Below are positions 1-12,417 of a DNA stretch of 12,590 nt, one piece after another. The notes below the pieces were generated by a model. It searched no databases, had not been told where the DNA came from, and was given only the letters and a program-made list of their open reading frames with translations. The first letter of the stretch is position 1, and each line of letters begins with the position of its first letter. Origin of the DNA: Promethearchaeota archaeon (GTDB lineage Archaea; Asgardarchaeota; Thorarchaeia; Thorarchaeales; Thorarchaeaceae); assembly GCA_014728035.1 (NCBI GenBank), contig WJMJ01000145.1, positions 1 through 12,590 on the forward strand, given 5' to 3'. A program made the translations under genes and the position numbers.

Positions 1-124
1 ATATATCCTCTTCATCTTCATCAAACTCAGGAATTTCATCCTGTTCGAGGAAGATTCTATCTCCTACTTCTAGGAGATATTCTTGATCATCTAGGATTAC
101 CTTAGATTCCCTAGTTACGATCAT
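1..124 (-). CDS. Partial CDS (runs off the left edge): MIVTRESKVILDDQEYLLEVGDRIFLEQDEIPEFDEDEEDI..., paralogue of 1429..2049
   Basis: Read by hand: ATG at 124, open to the window edge. Only 3 mismatches in 124 nt versus 1926..2049. Overlaps the end of 111..461. Confidence 0.85.
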   Translation of the reverse strand, partial: MIVTRESKVILDDQEYLLEVGDRIFLEQDEIPEFDEDEEDI

Positions 125-461
125 CTAATAATTTACTTTCCGCATCCATAATAGCATATGCGCCTAATAATCTATCATCCTCTTTCGATATTTCTGATAA
201 ATCAATTTCATCATATGTAGATTCAAATTCAACTTCATTTGGTGCTTCGGGTTCATCACGACTAAGCGGGTGTCCGAAATAAACAGTATATGCTATTTCT
301 ATTTCGCGCTCTTCTGGATCTATAGAACTAGGCAGATCAATGAACATATAATCTTTATAAACTTTATCAATTAATCTGCGATCGACTGGCGGCTCATACA
401 CGCGATTAATCATATTGCGATCATATTTGAGACGAGAATCAATCATTTCCATAATATTCAT
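111..461 (-). CDS. Acidic hypothetical protein, paralogue of 475..822
   Basis: 116-aa ORF with GGGGTG upstream. Shares MNIxEMIxSRL, IDPxExxI and GxPxxRDE with its neighbour. Confidence 0.8.
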   Translation of the reverse strand: MNIMEMIDSRLKYDRNMINRVYEPPVDRRLIDKVYKDYMFIDLPSSIDPEEREIEIAYTVYFGHPLSRDEPEAPNEVEFESTYDEIDLSEISKEDDRLLGAYAIMDAESKLLDDRN

Positions 462-3370: not shown

Positions 3371-3402
3371 GGGGGAGGAGATCTACCCTGACCCCCTCCC
3401 CC
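3371..3402 (-). terminator. GC-rich 13-bp hairpin, probable terminator or 3' end of the ncRNA transcript
   Basis: Minus strand GGGGGAGGGGGUC-AGGGUA-GAUCUCCUCCCCC. Its two G-U pairs only work on the minus strand. Followed by AUUUGUAUU, a weak U-tract. Confidence 0.65.
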
Positions 3403-3436
3403 TAGTATAAGTTTTCAAGACTTAACTAATTCGGGC

Positions 3437-3625
3437 GGCTCATACTCATCATATAACGAATTGCCTCATTTTGCTAATGGCGCTCTACCACTGAGCTACG
3501 CGTCCTCGTATCCCTCTGCTTTGTCGGGCTTGGGACCGTCATCGGCAGCATTATTGGGGGACGCGATGGGATTCGAACCCATGACCACCAATTCATTGGA
3601 CAATTCGCATATCAAATAAAGAGCC
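3437..3625 (-). ncRNA. Circularly permuted tRNA-like RNA with no anticodon loop
   Basis: The 3' half comes first: UGGUC, AUGGG-UUCGAAU-CCCAU T-arm (3582-3566), CGCGUCC-C-CCA (3565-3555). The 5' half follows: GGACGCG-UA-GCUC-AGUGGUA-GAGC-G (3505-3481). Perfect 7-bp acceptor stem. CCAUU/AUUGG forms the anticodon stem, extended outward by CGAAUUG/CAAUUCG and GGCUC/GAGCC. Confidence 0.85.
3511..3554 (-). ncRNA. Twister self-cleaving ribozyme core; predicted cleavage between U3553 and A3552
   Basis: UAA UGCU GCC GAUG ACGG UCCCAAGC CCGA CAA AGCA GAGGG. P2 UGCU/AGCA, P4 CGG/CCG, pseudoknots GC/GC and CCC/GGG. Conserved U^A cleavage site and catalytic-G position (3516). Aligns closely with the Oryza sativa twister as I recall it. 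Confidence 0.85.
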
Positions 3626-3627
3626 TA

Positions 3628-3729
3628 CTGACACTAACTGGACAATAATCTGACACTGAATCTGCGGTGATAGTAAATGTTATCACGACAGATACGATGA
3701 TACTGATACTGCGGCTGACACTGTCCAGT
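3628..3729 (-). repeat. Structured short-repeat domain (CAGURUCAG units) between the 254-aa gene and the tRNA-like domain
   Basis: CAGTGTCAG at 3723-3715 and 3658-3650, CAGTATCAG at 3711-3703, CAGTATCAT at 3705-3697, TAGTGTCAG at 3636-3628. Closing stem ACUGGACA/UGUCCAGU plus an inner hairpin at 3693-3660. Confidence 0.7.
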
Positions 3730-3736
3730 AAAAATT

Positions 3737-4501
3737 TTATTTGCCAAGAATGTAGTTGGCAATCTCCTTTCCTATAGTCACATTCAAGATTTCCTGCTCG
3801 TTTGCACGCTGACGAGCTTTCTTTACTGCGCGTTGCAATTTATCAACCCTGCTGATAATAGAAGATTTGTCAGCAGGAGACAAAACACCAGACCAATGAG
3901 TCTCAATGAATTTTCCAATCGGCGCATCTTCATTCCATTTTTCAATTTGTGCTGGATGTTTATCAGTAGCATCATATAAGACCTTGTGCTGAACCACCTT
4001 CTTGGTGCGTCGTTTTTCAACAGGATTTGCCGTCTTATACACAGTACCCGTCGTGGCCTTGACATGCGTTTCGTCTTTTTCCCATTTAATCCCAGGCTGT
4101 AATGTTGGAATATTATCCAACACTTGTCTGATATCTTTCAACCTGGTTTCAAGGCCAAGAAGGAAAGTGGCCGGAACATCCTTAGCTATAGTCACCCCAT
4201 CCACAACAAGGTCGGTCCTTGCTTCTTGGTTGGTTCTCTCTTTCTGAATGAGTACATCCAGATATGGTATGATGGATTCACTAAATATATAATCCAATTT
4301 TTCATCCACCGTCGTTACCATTTCCACTTCTTCATCTGCCAACACGTCTGGATCATTCTCATCAAATGGCTCATAATGACGCACCTGAGCCATAAAATGG
4401 TTTGGCTTGTTCTTGAATGTGGCGGTTGCTTCGTTTAGAATTTTCTGGTAGGCACCCCGGTGGTCACCCTCTACTGCGATAATTTCGTGCAATTTACCCA
4501 T
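3737..4501 (-). CDS. Hypothetical protein (MGKLHEIIAVE...), largely helical/coiled-coil, upstream of the ncRNA
   Basis: 254-aa ORF with a strong AAGGAG RBS. I recall similar proteins in bacteria and phages but cannot assign a function. Confidence 0.9.
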   Translation of the reverse strand: MGKLHEIIAVEGDHRGAYQKILNEATATFKNKPNHFMAQVRHYEPFDENDPDVLADEEVEMVTTVDEKLDYIFSESIIPYLDVLIQKERTNQEARTDLVVDGVTIAKDVPATFLLGLETRLKDIRQVLDNIPTLQPGIKWEKDETHVKATTGTVYKTANPVEKRRTKKVVQHKVLYDATDKHPAQIEKWNEDAPIGKFIETHWSGVLSPADKSSIISRVDKLQRAVKKARQRANEQEILNVTIGKEIANYILGK

Positions 4502-4550: not shown

Positions 4551-4997
4551 TTAACCGAAATATCTTCTTAGTAATTCTTTAGATTCATTATCATCTACCA
4601 AGTCTACAAAAAATTCAAGCGGAATCTCCATATAATTATCATCCATGCTTGACAGCAATTCATGAGCTACCTCTTTTATGATATCATAATGATCTGGGTC
4701 AATGTTAATAAAATCTTTGAGAATCTTATCCTTACTGTGTACTGTGGTGGTTGGCATATTTAGATCGGTCGTCTCTACAGACAGCGCAACTGACACTGAC
4801 ACTTTACCATTATTGCCTTCCATAGTTATCATATATAGGAATGGTCCTTCATAAGTGCTTTTATCACTCTCAGCATATCTACTTATGGATACCTTTACAT
4901 CAAAGATTTCATCCTGTTCGAGGAAGATTCTATCTCCTACTTCTAGGAGATATTCTTGATCATCTAGGATTACCTTGGATTCTTTAGTTACGATCAT
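4551..4997 (-). CDS. LExGDxI cassette fused to an unrelated ~117-aa body (148 aa)
   Basis: Start reassigned to 4997 (ATGA overlap with the upstream stop; matches the paralogue starts). Confidence 0.85.
   Translation of the reverse strand: MIVTKESKVILDDQEYLLEVGDRIFLEQDEIFDVKVSISRYAESDKSTYEGPFLYMITMEGNNGKVSVSVALSVETTDLNMPTTTVHSKDKILKDFINIDPDHYDIIKEVAHELLSSMDDNYMEIPLEFFVDLVDDNESKELLRRYFG
4906..4997 (-). repeat. Dispersed N-terminal cassette, copy C (identity ends after ...FLEQDEI)
   Basis: Two mismatches versus the copy at 5523..5614, then abrupt divergence. Confidence 0.95.
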
Positions 4998-5614
4998 AGG
5001 AATTTCCTCTTGTACGCACGCCACCATTTTGGACTTTGCTTGATTGTATCCTCAGCCTCAGGCCATCTACCATTAATTACATAACAAGCATAATAATAAG
5101 CTAATCGTGGATCTTGCTTGATGGTGTCCTCGGCCTCAGGCCACCTACCCTTGATCACATTACGAGCATATGCATTTGCCCATTCTGGATCTTGTTTAAT
5201 TATATCCTCTACCTCAGGCCACCTACCCTTGATCACATCACGAGCATACATATAAGACCATTTTGGATCTTGCTTGATTGTGTTCTCACCCTCAGGCCAT
5301 CTACCCTTAATCACATTAAAAGCATAATAATAAGACCAATATGGATCTTGCTTGATTGCCTCCTCACCCTCAGGCCATCTGCCCTTGATTACGTCATCGG
5401 CATATTCATAAGCCCATTTTGGATTTTGCTTGATAACATTAAGTACTCTATTATCATCAGGGTGCTCTTTGATGTATTCTATTGGATCACCGAATATATC
5501 CTCCTCATCCTCGAATTCTGGAATTTCATCCTGTTCGAGGAAAATCCTATCTCCTACTTCTAGGAGATATTCTTGATCATCTAGGATTACCTTGGATTCT
5601 TTAGTTACGATCAT
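4994..5614 (-). CDS. LExGDxI-module protein with 26-aa RWPE/KQDP helical repeats (206 aa), paralogue of 1429..2049
   Basis: Start reassigned to 5614 (ATGA overlap with the endonuclease stop). Five RWPE units. Confidence 0.9.
   Translation of the reverse strand: MIVTKESKVILDDQEYLLEVGDRIFLEQDEIPEFEDEEDIFGDPIEYIKEHPDDNRVLNVIKQNPKWAYEYADDVIKGRWPEGEEAIKQDPYWSYYYAFNVIKGRWPEGENTIKQDPKWSYMYARDVIKGRWPEVEDIIKQDPEWANAYARNVIKGRWPEAEDTIKQDPRLAYYYACYVINGRWPEAEDTIKQSPKWWRAYKRKFL
4997..5434 (-). repeat. Intragenic 78-nt (26-aa) tandem repeats
   Basis: ctcaggcca recurs every 78 nt (e.g. 5057 and 5135). Confidence 0.9.
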
Positions 5615-7485
5615 CTTGTCCATATAAATCTCAAATTACCAGCATCCCACAATCTTCTATACCCATTTAGAAACATGTTTTCAGCTTCCGTAACATGCTC
5701 ATCAAAATGTTCAAGTTTATCTTTGAGCTTATGCTTCTGAAATTGTATTCTTGAATAAACTCTATTTTGCTTCACGTAACAATAATTTGGTCTTGTGATA
5801 CCATCAAGATCAAACCCCAAATGATAATATAAATCGCCATTGCTATATCTTCTATTGGCATATGATAATACCAATTCTGGATTGCACCTTTTGATGAAGT
5901 GCTTAAATAATCTACTGGCACCACCAATTACAGTTTTTCCAATTTTATTAGCAAATCGAGTAATTTCCCAACCATATTTATTGTGTTTATTAAATGACAT
6001 CACCGCCAATAACTCATCATTATAATATAAACCGCATATAAAGTGTGAATATTTATAACCTTGCAGATGATTAGATGCCATGAATTTCCTATACGTGCCT
6101 ATACCCACTTCCATTATATCACATTTTCTAGCATAAATTCTATCCGTCATGTTAAGTTTGCTTTTTATAATTGATTTTACAACATGTTGGTTGTTTCTCC
6201 ATTCATCCTCTGATATTTGTATCAATCTAATTCCTAATTCATTGCATCTATCTAATTTAAACACGTGTCGTTGTCTTTCTTGTGTGGTTTCTACATGATC
6301 ATAAGAATGCCAGTATATACCATTCACTTCAATGGCCAGGTTGCAATCCAATACCAAAATATCTAGTTCATATGGATAAATGGCGGATCTATCATTCATT
6401 TTAGATCTAGATAATTCATTTACAAATTCATAGACTTCATTCTGCAAGTGACCACCAGAACACAGTTGACATCCATTTCTATTTAGAATATGATATCGCG
6501 GCACCTGCCAAAACATACCATGGGTTGGGCACTTCATATTGGCAAGTGAATCATAAGATTCATAGATCATCTCACCATAATCATATGTATCTCCATGAAT
6601 CTCCTTTGCTTTCGCTACAAATTCCTCTCTGGTAATCCGTATGTCGTGTACTTTTAGTCCAAATCTTTTAACTGCACTAGATACTGCTTTCTTCCCACAT
6701 CCAATTTCTGATGCAATATCTCTGGTAGATCTGCCAGATTTAATATATTCATTTTTTAGCCAATCAACATCATTTAATTTATCAAATGCATTATCACCTA
6801 TAACTGATTTCAAATTTGTTGGTTTATCAAATTGGGGTGCATGTGGTTTTAAACCAATCTTCTTCATTCTGTTTTTTATAACATGCACTCCTTGCCCAAG
6901 CACTGATGCGATATCAGATAAACACATACCAGATTCATGTAGCTCTTTTATTTGATCAATGTCTACACTGTGCTTATTATGTGGTATTACATTTTGACTT
7001 GGCTTCCCAGATGGTTTCAATCCATTGGAGCGTAATAATCTGCGCACGACATGGCCACCTACATTATACATTCTAGCAATATCTGTTGTTGACATGCCAT
7101 TATGATAATGCTTTATAACATCATCTACATGATCTGATAATTTCGATTTTGGATACTTTGAAGATCTGTTCTTCGTGAATCTTGGTTTTCTATTTGGATA
7201 CTTATCCCGCAAAATAGTGCTGACTAGTGAATATTCAACCCCAAGAGAATGAGCAATATCGCTTGGTGCATGTCCATTCTCATACATGTCTGTGATTTGT
7301 TCTTTATATCTTACCTTTAGACTGTTTTTGGAAGGTTTTCTGCGAGGATTAATATCGTGTAGTTTAAGAATTCTTGATATTACTTTATGAGTTACTTCAT
7401 ATTTTGCAGCAATATCTGATACATTATAATTAGAATTATATAATTCGATTATTTTATCGTGTTCATTGTGTATGTCCATGACCAC
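5611..7485 (-). CDS. Hef-like homing endonuclease: tandem HTH repeats, CPxHG...GCxxC Zn finger, Vsr/DUF559-like nuclease, IYARKC-initiated GNAT-like C-terminal domain
   Basis: Motifs CPTHGMFWQ..HIL..NGCQLC, YELDI...LAIEVNGIYWHS, IYARKC, WEITRFA, SYANRRYSNG.LY..LGF and WDAGN. Confidence 0.8.
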   Translation of the reverse strand: MVMDIHNEHDKIIELYNSNYNVSDIAAKYEVTHKVISRILKLHDINPRRKPSKNSLKVRYKEQITDMYENGHAPSDIAHSLGVEYSLVSTILRDKYPNRKPRFTKNRSSKYPKSKLSDHVDDVIKHYHNGMSTTDIARMYNVGGHVVRRLLRSNGLKPSGKPSQNVIPHNKHSVDIDQIKELHESGMCLSDIASVLGQGVHVIKNRMKKIGLKPHAPQFDKPTNLKSVIGDNAFDKLNDVDWLKNEYIKSGRSTRDIASEIGCGKKAVSSAVKRFGLKVHDIRITREEFVAKAKEIHGDTYDYGEMIYESYDSLANMKCPTHGMFWQVPRYHILNRNGCQLCSGGHLQNEVYEFVNELSRSKMNDRSAIYPYELDILVLDCNLAIEVNGIYWHSYDHVETTQERQRHVFKLDRCNELGIRLIQISEDEWRNNQHVVKSIIKSKLNMTDRIYARKCDIMEVGIGTYRKFMASNHLQGYKYSHFICGLYYNDELLAVMSFNKHNKYGWEITRFANKIGKTVIGGASRLFKHFIKRCNPELVLSYANRRYSNGDLYYHLGFDLDGITRPNYCYVKQNRVYSRIQFQKHKLKDKLEHFDEHVTEAENMFLNGYRRLWDAGNLRFIWTR

Positions 7486-8177: not shown

Positions 8178-9734
8178 TTATTTTTGATTTCTATGATAAA
8201 TATATTTCAACTTTTCTTTTCCCATCACTTTAATTAAACCAAAGGTAGCCACATAAGCTGCCTCAGTAATTTTTGATTTCTTGGCGTGATAATATATAGA
8301 CTTCTTGTGGGTATAATATCCATCAGCATCAATATACCAATAGTCTGGTTTAACCTCTCCCATAAACTCAAAATTACTTGCCTTATAAATTGTACCACGA
8401 TGATTGAAAGTTGTATCTGAGTAAGCTATTATGTCATGGTATCGCCGTGGTAATCGTTTTATGCTCTGTGATATTAACCAACTAGCAAAATTCTTTTTTT
8501 GATATCTTGGATGAATACATAATCTCGATAATTCAGTGGTATGATAATAATCATGTGGCAGATTTTGCCTTATTAAAGGCGAAAAGACAACACTACCAAT
8601 AAGCACATCACCAAGGTACGCAGCAAATACGTTGCCACAACGACCGGCGCTTCCAATATAATGGTGTGAACTTATAAATATATCAACTTCGGATTTACTT
8701 ACCTTTTTTATTATCACGTCCTTGAAACAAAAATCATATATATCATCATTGATATTACACCAATATTTTATTAAATTGACAATTTTACCAACACTTTTGA
8801 ATTCATGCTCCCATATATATTTTATCTCACATTCTGGATGATTTTTTGCTATATAATCAAATTTCAATCTATCATTCTGTACAGCAGTGGGCAATGAATG
8901 CCAATAAACACCATTGCATTCAATTAGGACTATTTTATGTCCTAAGGGTATGGCACAATCAAAAGAAAACGGTCCATAATGGCATTGTTGATCATCATCC
9001 CTGTCTTCATACTCTCTATAATATGTAATCCCAAGATTATCTAATATCATATATAACATAAGCTGTAATTTTGATACTCTGGAACGATTCACATGGATTT
9101 CTGCCATCTTTTTTCTGTATTCTGGATCACCCCATCTGCGCTTCGCTACAATAGACATTTTATGCTTAAATTCTTCACCAAAGTGAATATCAGTATTGAT
9201 TCCATGCTTATTTAATAATCTACCTATAGTTGAATATGAGCACCCAAAATATTTACCACATTCTTCCATAGTATGTGATTGATAATATTCAATCAATTCT
9301 TTAATATTGATGTGATCACGTAGATCATCAATATTATTGATATTGTTTCTTCGTAAGAATGATCTAATAGAAGCTACGCCAACACCACATTTATCAGCAC
9401 ATTCTTTGAGAGTGTGATCTTTCAAATATTCTTTAATGAATTCAAGGTCATGATTATCAGCATAATGAATACCAGTTTCATATCCTGCTTTTCTCAATCT
9501 TGTGCCAAGAACATGGGGAGAGCAACCAAATTTATGTGTACATTCCTCTAATGTGTGATCTTGATAATAGTGATATAATTCATCAATGTCAATGTGCTTC
9601 TTATTGGGCGGATCTTTTGGTGGTTTAACCAATCCAAGATTTTTGGCTTTATATCGAACTTGATCAACTGTCATATTAAATTCAATAGCTGTTTCTTTCA
9701 ATGTATGTGTCAAATAGTGTTGATCAAAATTCAT
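8178..9734 (-). CDS. HTH-repeat protein with a Vsr/DUF559-like nuclease and a Mom-like (GNAT) C-terminal domain
   Basis: About four HTxxECxxxFGxS repeats. FSFDCAI...LIECNGVYWH. ELSRLC...NFASWLIS...IAYSD...HRGTIYKASNF matches the Mom-family motif. Confidence 0.8.
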   Translation of the reverse strand: MNFDQHYLTHTLKETAIEFNMTVDQVRYKAKNLGLVKPPKDPPNKKHIDIDELYHYYQDHTLEECTHKFGCSPHVLGTRLRKAGYETGIHYADNHDLEFIKEYLKDHTLKECADKCGVGVASIRSFLRRNNINNIDDLRDHINIKELIEYYQSHTMEECGKYFGCSYSTIGRLLNKHGINTDIHFGEEFKHKMSIVAKRRWGDPEYRKKMAEIHVNRSRVSKLQLMLYMILDNLGITYYREYEDRDDDQQCHYGPFSFDCAIPLGHKIVLIECNGVYWHSLPTAVQNDRLKFDYIAKNHPECEIKYIWEHEFKSVGKIVNLIKYWCNINDDIYDFCFKDVIIKKVSKSEVDIFISSHHYIGSAGRCGNVFAAYLGDVLIGSVVFSPLIRQNLPHDYYHTTELSRLCIHPRYQKKNFASWLISQSIKRLPRRYHDIIAYSDTTFNHRGTIYKASNFEFMGEVKPDYWYIDADGYYTHKKSIYYHAKKSKITEAAYVATFGLIKVMGKEKLKYIYHRNQK

Positions 9735-11568: not shown

Positions 11569-12417
11569 TTAGTCCTTAAACGTATACAAATGACCCTGCT
11601 CAGTCCAGCCAGCAAATCCAGTAATATCTTGTTCATCATAATTATCTGCATAATGCACAAGATACATCTTTTCTTTCCATTTAGAAGGCAATGTGTTCAG
11701 TGAGTACAATGGGGCATGAACAGCGCCAGGAAAGAATTGGACGTCATGGAACAGAACCTCTGAATGATCGGCATATGTATCTAGCAACTCTTCATCAAAT
11801 TTAGTATCACCAGAATAAAAAACACGACCATCAATAGAAAGTCCGTATGAAATAAATGATCCGGACCAACTATCCGATTGCTCAGGTATGTGGTTTGTTC
11901 TAAAAAGCTCTAGTGATATGGAACCAACATCAACACTGAAAATTTCTCTTGGCTTATGCTCTACCCATTGGGGCCTTATAATATCAAAATAATCCGTGAA
12001 TGCCATAACACGACCATGGGCAAGTTGTTCATTGTATTCTAAGCCACCTCTAAGGCTGTTCTCCCACAGTATTCTCTGATATTCAACACTAACAACCATC
12101 TTCAGCTTAGGTTTACCCATAAATGGAATACCAACATATTTATTCATCTGTGCAAGCTGTTCAAACCCACCTATGTGATCACCATGGCTGTGGGTAGGGA
12201 GAATAACTTCAATATCATACGGAGATAACCCCGTGGTTTGATGGAAGGCTTCTGGACCAGTACGGCCAAAATCCACCATAACATGATCATCGCCTTTCAT
12301 AATGAGAAGATTTGTCTGATTGTGTTTAGTTGCAAGTGCAGATCCCACTCCTATGAAGTATAGAACAAGTTCTCCATCTGTCTTAAGATTTTCAAGTTTC
12401 ATCAGATTCTTCTCCAC
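11569..12417 (-). CDS. MBL-fold metallo-hydrolase, Apyc1-like (anti-Pycsar cyclic-nucleotide phosphodiesterase family)
   Basis: THSHGDH metal motif plus GxGSA, LWENSLRGGL, FYSGDT, FHDVQFF, VHA and HYADN, which I recognise from Apyc1. Confidence 0.8.
   Translation of the reverse strand: MEKNLMKLENLKTDGELVLYFIGVGSALATKHNQTNLLIMKGDDHVMVDFGRTGPEAFHQTTGLSPYDIEVILPTHSHGDHIGGFEQLAQMNKYVGIPFMGKPKLKMVVSVEYQRILWENSLRGGLEYNEQLAHGRVMAFTDYFDIIRPQWVEHKPREIFSVDVGSISLELFRTNHIPEQSDSWSGSFISYGLSIDGRVFYSGDTKFDEELLDTYADHSEVLFHDVQFFPGAVHAPLYSLNTLPSKWKEKMYLVHYADNYDEQDITGFAGWTEQGHLYTFKD

What the first reader, a model, noticed from the sequence alone, without database searches (positions are those of the whole stretch)
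3506..3555. Twister ribozyme positioned to cut 2 nt after the CCA end
Seen: the 49-nt linker contains UAAUGCUGCCGAUGACGGUCCCAAGCCCGACAAAGCAGAGGG. Known: this fits the twister core; relative to the rice twister as I recall it, P2 shows compensatory changes (CACU/AGUG to UGCU/AGCA). A normal P1 is missing, and the tRNA acceptor stem would close the motif instead. Cleavage would leave ...CCA-A-U>p and a 5'-OH. HDV-like theta ribozymes are known to trim phage tRNA trailers; I do not know of a twister doing this inside a permuted tRNA. Inference: self-cleavage plus RNase P would give a two-piece tRNA mimic. The ends are also RtcB-type ligation substrates.
Basis: partly seen in the sequence, partly recalled or inferred. 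Interest (0 to 1): 0.85.

Follow-up and report, generated by a model that had tools for sequence, protein, structure and literature searches.

The report
Twister ribozyme inside phage tRNA mimic
A self-cutting RNA (twister ribozyme) sits in the loop that seals the end of a tRNA look-alike in a large virus, placed to cut two bases after the CCA tail; a distant virus keeps the same arrangement with matched changes, so it probably helps open this RNA into a two-piece tRNA mimic.

Summary
Confirmed, and found a second time. On the minus strand, 3553-3512 holds an intact twister core (Rfam twister-P1, 34.7 bits, below the gathering score; 0 of 300,000 shuffles match). The predicted cut, U3553/A3552, lies 2 nt after an encoded CCA. 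P1 is absent, but P1 is known to be dispensable.

The carrier is not a permuted tRNA gene. It is an anticodon-less tRNA mimic with the YrlA layout, part of a ~360-nt RNA behind a DUF7873 gene. Of 63 modules, 54 keep the CCA, and most have short ribozyme-free linkers.

A second virus (L263; 52% protein identity, 37% identity at fourfold sites) has a twister in the same loop. It has the same rare P2, a compensatory pseudoknot change, no P1, and cuts 1 nt after CCA. That argues for selection.

Best reading (55%): self-cleavage, RNase P and end-healing give a two-piece CCA-ended mimic. Rivals: a deliberately blocked cyclic-phosphate end, a harmless passenger, or a slow or dead copy. No cleavage or expression data exist.

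The parts
3512..3553 (-). P1-less twister ribozyme core. Scissile U3553/A3552; P2 3550-3547/3520-3517; T2 3546-3545/3529-3528; P4 3538-3536/3527-3525; T1 3534-3532/3514-3512; general base G3516
   Evidence: homolog L263
3555..3558 (-). Discriminator C73 and encoded CCA, 2 nt upstream of the predicted cut
   Evidence: CCA kept in 54 of 63 homologous modules
3559..3565 (-). Acceptor stem 3' strand
   Evidence: 7 of 7 pairs with 3505-3499, pair probability 0.92-0.99
3499..3505 (-). Acceptor stem 5' strand; predicted RNase P site 5' of G3505
   Evidence: RNase P use is inferred from family leaders and YrlA precedent
3566..3582 (-). T arm with canonical T loop
3482..3498 (-). U8, A9 and D arm
3437..3625 (-). 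Whole permuted tRNA-like domain with its long closing stem, which stands in place of the anticodon arm
   Evidence: YrlA match 3607-3454, 43.1 bits, E 6.1e-7; fold
3637..3729 (-). 5' stem domain with repeated YYAG-type words, conserved in the DUF7873-linked RNA family
   Evidence: fold; word enrichment in homologs
3408..3424 (-). Anticodon-like hairpin (5-bp stem, 7-nt loop), probably the reduced second tRNA-like module of the family
   Evidence: homologs have a tRNA-like unit or a similar hairpin here
3371..3402 (-). 3' terminal G/C-rich hairpin, terminator-like, recurring in homologs
3737..4501 (-). DUF7873 gene (254 aa), the usual upstream neighbour of this RNA family
   Evidence: Pfam PF25283, E 3.5e-75; 59 of 86 homologous loci have the module within 500 nt

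Best explanation
A functional twister ribozyme without P1 is built into the acceptor loop of an anticodon-less, circularly permuted tRNA mimic of a large virus, and serves as a cis-acting processing element. (1) The ~360-nt RNA behind DUF7873 is transcribed and folds with a 7-bp acceptor stem closed by the 53-nt loop (fold predicted; transcription not shown). (2) The twister cuts at U3553/A3552 and leaves CCA-A-U with a 2',3'-cyclic phosphate (site inferred from homology; activity not shown). (3) The remaining 47 nt become a 5' leader that RNase P removes at G3505 (inferred). (4) The cyclic phosphate is healed and 1-2 nt are trimmed back to the encoded CCA (inferred; enzyme unknown). The product is a two-piece tRNA mimic held together by its long stem, like RNase P-cut M. 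smegmatis YrlA. Ribozyme-free relatives probably reach the same product with RNase P and exonucleases alone. The ribozyme would make loop opening fast and independent of a host endonuclease.
For: Intact core and chance controls. Its spacings occur in natural twisters: J2/4 of 6 nt is the commonest class and J4/2 of 4 nt occurs in 5 others. A second twister lies in the same loop of L263 (36.5 bits, E 1.4e-5): same P2, found in none of 97 other twisters; T2 changed on both sides, G-C to A-U, a variant also seen in the full-P1 twister of L197; no P1; cut 1 nt after CCA. Its DUF7873 gene is 52% identical in protein and 37% identical at 54 fourfold sites, and both acceptor stems differ yet pair fully. 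The descriptor hit only these two places in 1.97 Mb of DUF7873 loci. Family signs of tRNA-type processing, neither used as a search filter: CCA in 54 of 63, and linker ending A-U in 33 of 63 against 31 of 120 ordinary phage tRNA leaders. P1 is dispensable (PMC5408937). YrlA precedent (PMC4201824). A contig tied to the same virus by shared repeats encodes a DRB0094-family RNA ligase and RlaP; that ligase family is 140-fold enriched in theta-ribozyme phages (PMC10879173).
Against: Only 2 of about 75 modules carry a ribozyme, so it is optional. The closest relative with DNA (L009) has only a plain hairpin. In the window copy a shifted P2 register that buries G3516 wins in pseudoknot-free models (native P2 probability 0.09); L263 does not have this problem (0.81-1.0). 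A cyclic phosphate blocks trimming and charging until healed (established chemistry), and no T4-type Pnk or Rnl1 was found (the controls rang nowhere, so this is inconclusive). No RNA data.
Confidence: 0.55

Rival explanations
1. The ribozyme is active, but the purpose is the blocked end. The RNA stays as CCA-N(1-2) with a cyclic phosphate, a self-made damaged-tRNA mimic that binds, decoys or cycles through RNA-repair or tRNA-sensing proteins (RtcB, RtcR-type CARF domains, CCA-targeting defence toxins).
For: RNase P plus exonucleases already suffice in YrlA, so a cut that leaves a blocked end looks unnecessary for simple maturation. RtcR binds tRNA fragments that end in a cyclic phosphate (PMC7790460). 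The virus carries RNA-repair genes. Discriminator and acceptor pairs vary across the family, so no amino-acid identity is conserved.
Against: A function that needs the cyclic phosphate should make the ribozyme common in the family; it is in 2 of about 75. The cut offset differs (2 nt and 1 nt). The only RtcB found is on a host contig, and that genome is probably not the virus's host.
Confidence: 0.17
2. Passenger: an active twister entered a disposable linker, perhaps by recombination at the family's frequent A-U-A-A after CCA, which matches the twister's own U-A-A and would remove P1 at once. It is tolerated because the linker is discarded anyway.
For: Linkers vary from 7 to 147 nt and accept many hairpins. 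A-U-A follows CCA in 8 of 54 modules. Twisters are common in phage intergenic DNA. The two carriers are not sisters in the DUF7873 tree.
Against: Both copies share a P2 seen in none of 97 other twisters, and keep every core position with a compensatory change, while fourfold sites of the adjacent gene are 37% identical. A neutral passenger should have decayed, and two independent arrivals would need the same rare donor.
Confidence: 0.16
3. The window copy is slow or dead: it is trapped in the shifted register and works only as a hairpin, as in sister locus L009, which has the same 4-bp stem and no core.
For: The shifted register has 4 of 4 pairs, seen in only 1 of 73 other twisters, and is favoured by 3.8-4.7 kcal/mol without pseudoknots. 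P4 has an outer A-A mismatch. The score is about half the Rfam gathering score.
Against: The models cannot count T1 and T2, and T2 forms only in the active register. Of 73 natural cores folded without P1, 8 score as low. The outer P4 pair is unpaired in 9 other natural twisters. No conserved core base is changed.
Confidence: 0.1
4. A true permuted tRNA gene that is spliced into a circle and reopened into a decoding tRNA, with the twister removing the intervening sequence.
For: The half order and the encoded CCA fit permuted tRNA genes (described in PMC10085705). The assembly is probably archaeal and has RtcB.
Against: There is no anticodon loop: positions 32-33 read A-G here and Y-U in only 9 of 58 modules. 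The anticodon-equivalent stem runs into a long family-specific stem. ARAGORN finds no tRNA. The phage-like contig C26 has bacterial-type tRNA-Tyr.
Confidence: 0.02

Closest known systems
Type-P1 twister ribozyme (Rfam RF03160) and the engineered P1-less mini-twister (reviewed in PMC5408937)
   Same: All core elements present in order: scissile step followed by A-A, P2, T2, P4, T1, general-base G.
   Different: Natural copies that lack P1 and lie inside a tRNA-like acceptor loop; 34.7 and 36.5 bits, below the gathering score of 67.2; P2 sequence not seen in 97 other phage twisters.
Theta ribozymes: tRNA-associated minimal HDV-like ribozymes of gut phages (PMC10879173)
   Same: Phage self-cleaving RNA placed to cut at a tRNA-type 3' end, leaving a cyclic phosphate; co-occurs with a DRB0094-family RNA ligase.
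   Different: Different ribozyme class; the substrate is a permuted, anticodon-less mimic and not a decoding tRNA; CCA is encoded (only 4.5% of theta-linked tRNAs encode it); the cut is internal, so both products stay paired.
YrlA bacterial and phage Y RNA (Rfam RF02553; PMC4201824; bioRxiv 10.1101/312249)
   Same: Same permuted layout: T arm, loop-closed acceptor stem, D arm on a long stem. M. smegmatis YrlA is RNase P-cut and gains CCA.
   Different: No Ro60 gene found nearby or in the assembly; Ro-binding motif absent; neighbour is DUF7873; CCA is encoded in the loop; no YrlA with a ribozyme was found in the papers searched.
Two-piece (permuted) tmRNA
   Same: CCA-bearing half first, an intervening loop removed, two pieces held by pairing (PMC10085705; details from my own knowledge).
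   Different: No G3-U70 alanine pair, full D arm, no tmRNA call by ARAGORN; the loop holds a ribozyme.

Membership tests
Twister ribozyme, type P1 (RF03160) | Stems P2 and P4 | tested here: met
   P2 4 of 4 Watson-Crick pairs, P4 3 G-C pairs; L263 P2 4 of 4, P4 5 pairs
Twister ribozyme, type P1 (RF03160) | Pseudoknots T1 and T2 | tested here: met
   T1 3 C-G pairs, T2 2 pairs; T2 covaries between the window and L263
Twister ribozyme, type P1 (RF03160) | Conserved catalytic nucleotides: A after the cut, general-base G, L4 A-A | tested here: met
   A3552, A3551, A3531, A3530, G3516, A3515
Twister ribozyme, type P1 (RF03160) | Stem P1 next to the cleavage site | tested here: not met
   1 of 4 pairs, against 3-4 of 4 in 67 of 73 others. 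P1 is dispensable for activity, so this makes it a variant and not a failed ribozyme.
Twister ribozyme, type P1 (RF03160) | Rfam gathering score 67.2 bits | tested here: not met
   34.7 bits and 36.5 bits; twisters with a P1 in L131/L132 also fall short at 58-60 bits
Twister ribozyme, type P1 (RF03160) | Site-specific self-cleavage | not testable with these tools
   needs an in vitro assay
YrlA Y RNA (RF02553) | Permuted tRNA-like domain: T arm, closed acceptor stem, D arm | tested here: met
   43.1 bits, E 6.1e-7; fold
YrlA Y RNA (RF02553) | Ro60-binding motif GNCGAAN(0-1)G on the 5' strand | tested here: not met
   The window has only the C-G-A-A part; full motif in 4 of 63 homologs
YrlA Y RNA (RF02553) | Ro60/Rsr gene adjacent | tested here: not met
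   Neighbour is DUF7873; no TROVE match in the assembly; 2 of 43 homologous virus records, 1 of 12 near-complete ones, have TROVE anywhere. Very divergent Ro-like proteins are not excluded.
YrlA Y RNA (RF02553) | Binds Ro60 in vivo | not testable with these tools
   needs a pull-down
Theta ribozyme | Minimal HDV-like fold | tested here: not met
   Rfam scan gives twister and no HDV-like family
Theta ribozyme | Cut at or near a tRNA-type 3' end in a phage | tested here: met
   2 nt (window) and 1 nt (L263) after CCA
Permuted tRNA gene | Halves rebuild a 7-nt anticodon loop | tested here: not met
   no Y32-U33 here; 9 of 58 in homologs
Permuted tRNA gene | Bulge-helix-bulge splice junction | not tested
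   not searched formally; none evident in the predicted fold
Two-piece tmRNA | G3-U70 alanine identity and a tag reading frame | tested here: not met
   pair 3-70 is A-U here and never G-U in 63 modules; no ARAGORN tmRNA

The most novel reading that the evidence does not exclude
Natural P1-less twister ribozymes are conserved, working parts of a viral tRNA-mimic RNA: they open its sealed acceptor loop next to the CCA and so switch it from a closed form to a two-piece form with a free or cyclic-phosphate-blocked CCA end. This would be a self-cleaving ribozyme that matures or activates a Y-RNA-like non-coding RNA. With the twister behind an intact tRNA-Glu in L131/L132, it would show that a second ribozyme class besides HDV-like theta processes tRNA-type 3' ends.
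Probability: 0.6. Interest if true: 0.82.

Novelty: new variant of a known kind. Interest (0 to 1): 0.72.

Why it matters
The purpose of most bacterial and phage self-cleaving ribozymes is unknown (PMC6765202). Here the substrate and cut site can be read from the sequence, and dozens of ribozyme-free relatives serve as natural controls, so the question can be tested with one transcript and one point mutant. It would extend ribozyme-driven tRNA 3' processing from the HDV-like class to twister, and supply natural examples of the P1-less mini-twister so far described as an engineered construct. It also bears on the undescribed DUF7873-linked RNA family: a ribozyme kept beside the CCA suggests that the acceptor loop is meant to be opened.

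Tried and rejected
Pattern scans of viral contigs for a twister tied to a T loop or D arm gave only chance hits. Such patterns would miss L263 (changed T loop and T2), so absence is weak evidence. The one metagenome scan found no permuted carrier, only L131/L132. blastn against cultured phages found no full-length relative. The closest protein relative (P0002, 63%) and P0052 came without DNA; L318 ends 84 nt after its gene. No further twister or other Rfam ribozyme was found in the other DUF7873 loci scanned. DUF7873 model (pLDDT 92): no Foldseek match at E <= 0.001, best VIA Z 8.2 on helices only, Atlas gives only its own family; the fold stays unassigned. The Burroughs and Aravind 2016 paper could not be fetched. 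Paper searches for YrlA with twister, for DUF7873, and for tRNA-associated twisters found nothing relevant; the library lacks most subscription papers. The MAFFT alignment of twisters misplaced the gaps and was not used for pair counts. The 7-of-7 acceptor pairing was a search filter and is not counted as evidence; with a 6-of-7 filter nearly all modules were still 7 of 7. The MBL gene at 11569-12417 is Apyc1-like, not RNase Z, so I do not invoke it for healing. The sigma-70-like site at 3762-3734 fits the RNA's 5' end but is within chance.

Full report
OBSERVATION. Read 5' to 3', the region gives a T arm (3582-3566), an acceptor 3' strand (3565-3559), C73 and CCA (3558-3555), 49 further bases, an acceptor 5' strand (3505-3499) and a D arm (3496-3482). 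Rfam returns twister-P1 at 3557-3508 (34.7 bits, E 1.8e-4) nested in a YrlA match at 3607-3454 (43.1 bits, E 6.1e-7); both are below their gathering scores. The twister match is the only one in the assembly (E 1.5e-5), and a pairing descriptor matched none of 300,000 shuffles of the loop. ARAGORN finds no tRNA or tmRNA in the window.

IS THE CORE PLAUSIBLE? I collected natural twisters from viral contigs and compared 73 of them with the window. The window has the commonest J2/4 length (6 nt), a short J4/2 (4 nt) shared by 5 others, and an unpaired outer P4 position shared by 9 others. Two things are unusual. P1 has 1 of 4 pairs, against 3 or 4 in 67 of 73; P1 is dispensable in vitro (PMC5408937). 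P2 carries a compensatory change that also allows a perfect shifted register burying the general base G3516; without pseudoknots this register wins by 3.8-4.7 kcal/mol. These models cannot count T1 and T2, and T2 forms only in the active register, so this lowers but does not remove the case for activity. The acceptor stem is predicted with probability 0.92-0.99 but lies across a 5x6-nt loop from the core; it is a distant clamp, not a stand-in P1.

WHAT CARRIES IT. The upstream gene is DUF7873, with 1,109 homologs, including cultured phages of Rhizobium, Vibrio, Gordonia and others. In 59 of 86 distinct homologous loci the same permuted module lies within 500 nt of the stop codon. CCA follows the acceptor stem in 54 of 63 modules. 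Linkers are 7-147 nt, and 33 of 63 end in A-U, against 31 of 120 ordinary phage tRNA leaders; U at -1 and A at -2 are favoured by bacterial RNase P (my own knowledge). There is no anticodon loop and no conserved amino-acid identity. The module is part of a ~360-nt RNA (3729-3371) with a 5' repeat-rich stem, a second tRNA-like unit or its remnant, and a final hairpin. It works like YrlA in layout, but lacks the Ro-binding motif and a Ro60 neighbour, so I do not file it as YrlA. Earlier notes of this scan describe the same family on other DNA; none of those shown mentions a ribozyme.

THE SECOND EXAMPLE. Locus L263 (JGI 3300037067) has a twister in the same loop: 36.5 bits, E 1.4e-5. It shares the window's P2, which none of 97 other twisters has, and again lacks P1. 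Pseudoknot T2 is changed on both sides (G-C to A-U), a variant also found in a full-P1 twister (L197). P4 has 5 pairs, the native P2 is predicted at 0.81-1.0, and the cut falls 1 nt after CCA. The two DUF7873 genes are 52% identical in protein and 37% identical at 54 fourfold-degenerate sites, and the acceptor stems differ while pairing fully. The descriptor found only these two places in 1.97 Mb of DUF7873 loci. The carriers are not sisters in the protein tree, and the nearest relative with DNA, L009, has a plain hairpin with the shifted-register stem. So the ribozyme was either inherited and lost often, or moved between viruses. An intact, covarying core across this distance is best explained by selection for cleavage (inference from two sequences).

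A RELATED ARRANGEMENT. The metagenome scan found two human-gut phage-like contigs in which an intact tRNA-Glu with encoded CCA is followed by a twister (60 bits) cutting 4 nt after CCA. None of the 97 viral twisters had a T loop just upstream, so the association is rare.

SETTING. The window is all of contig C118 and is phage-like: Mom, endonuclease and Apyc1-like genes. It overlaps C160 by 141 nt and shares a repeated gene family with C131, C158, C74 and C27, which points to one large virus. C74 encodes a DRB0094-family RNA ligase above its cut-off and an RlaP nucleotidyltransferase. That ligase family is enriched 140-fold in theta-ribozyme phages (PMC10879173). Earlier notes call the assembly Thorarchaeota; it lacks sigma-70 and class II CCA enzymes. 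DUF7873 is absent from 86 related genomes, and the phage-like tRNA cluster on C26 has a bacterial-type tRNA-Tyr (C26 is tied to C118 only by composition). The virus is probably a mis-binned bacteriophage, so the RtcB on host contig C44 says little.

MECHANISM. Shown by sequence: the core, its position, the CCA, the second example and the covariation. Inferred: transcription, cleavage, RNase P removal of the 47-nt leader, and healing and trimming to CCA. M. smegmatis YrlA, which has a 7-bp acceptor stem, is cut by RNase P and ends in CCA in vivo (PMC4201824), so the two-piece product has a precedent; the ribozyme route does not, in the papers I could search. The weak point is that a cyclic phosphate must be removed before trimming. 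This keeps open the rival in which the blocked end is the goal, since RtcR senses tRNA fragments with such ends (PMC7790460). Odds: maturation 0.55, blocked-end decoy 0.17, active passenger 0.16, slow or dead window copy 0.10, true permuted tRNA 0.02.

VERDICT. Real, not chance, and repeated in a distant virus. It is a new variant of a known kind: a P1-less twister doing a theta-like job inside a YrlA-layout RNA of the DUF7873-linked family. Interest 0.72, limited by having only two carriers and no biochemical or expression data.

Noticed in passing
L131 1536-1674 (-); L132 11174-11312 (-): Intact tRNA-Glu(UUC) with encoded CCA followed by a twister-P1 (60 bits) that would cut 4 nt after CCA; sequence 3' of the ribozyme could pair with the tRNA's ACCA end. 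Human-gut phage-like contigs with RAGATH RNAs and a second twister.
   Followed up: partly
L009 6962-6994 (+): Sister locus: the acceptor loop is a 33-nt hairpin with the same 4-bp stem as the window's shifted register but no twister core; possibly a decayed relic.
   Followed up: partly
L014, L021, L034, L045, L054, L079, L087, L099, L101 (module linkers): In these homologs the CCA (or a changed CUA/CCU) pairs with the linker's 3' end and extends the acceptor stem, suggesting a closed subtype that is not processed.
   Followed up: no
L035 5926-6072 (+): 147-nt highly paired acceptor-loop insert with no Rfam match.
   Followed up: partly
window 1-127, 1926-2052, 4906-4997, 5494-5616 (-): A near-identical ~90-130-nt segment starts several genes here and on C160, C131, C158, C74 and C27: a multi-copy gene family with a shared N-terminus and 78-nt repeats.
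   Followed up: partly
window 11569-12417 (-): Apyc1-like metallo-beta-lactamase (E 1e-30 to solved Apyc1), a candidate anti-Pycsar gene.
   Followed up: partly
window 8178-9734 (-) and 5611-7485 (-): Mom-family DNA-modification domain fused behind HTH repeats and a weak endonuclease-like segment, and an HTH-endonuclease gene; paralogs of both lie on C160.
   Followed up: no
G000 contigs C70, C160, C27, C158, C131, C152, C74, C26, C122, C140: About 270 kb of phage-like contigs, with more than 20 CCA-encoding tRNAs, are binned in this archaeal assembly (contamination 8.5%); probably one or more large bacteriophages.
   Followed up: partly
L257 3652-4737 and 6939-7766 (-): DRB0094-family RNA ligase and RlaP nucleotidyltransferase on viral contig C74.
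   Followed up: partly
L093, L104: DUF7873 with the same RNA module also occurs on contigs binned with Bathyarchaeia and Promethearchaeota; whether any such virus infects archaea is open.
   Followed up: no
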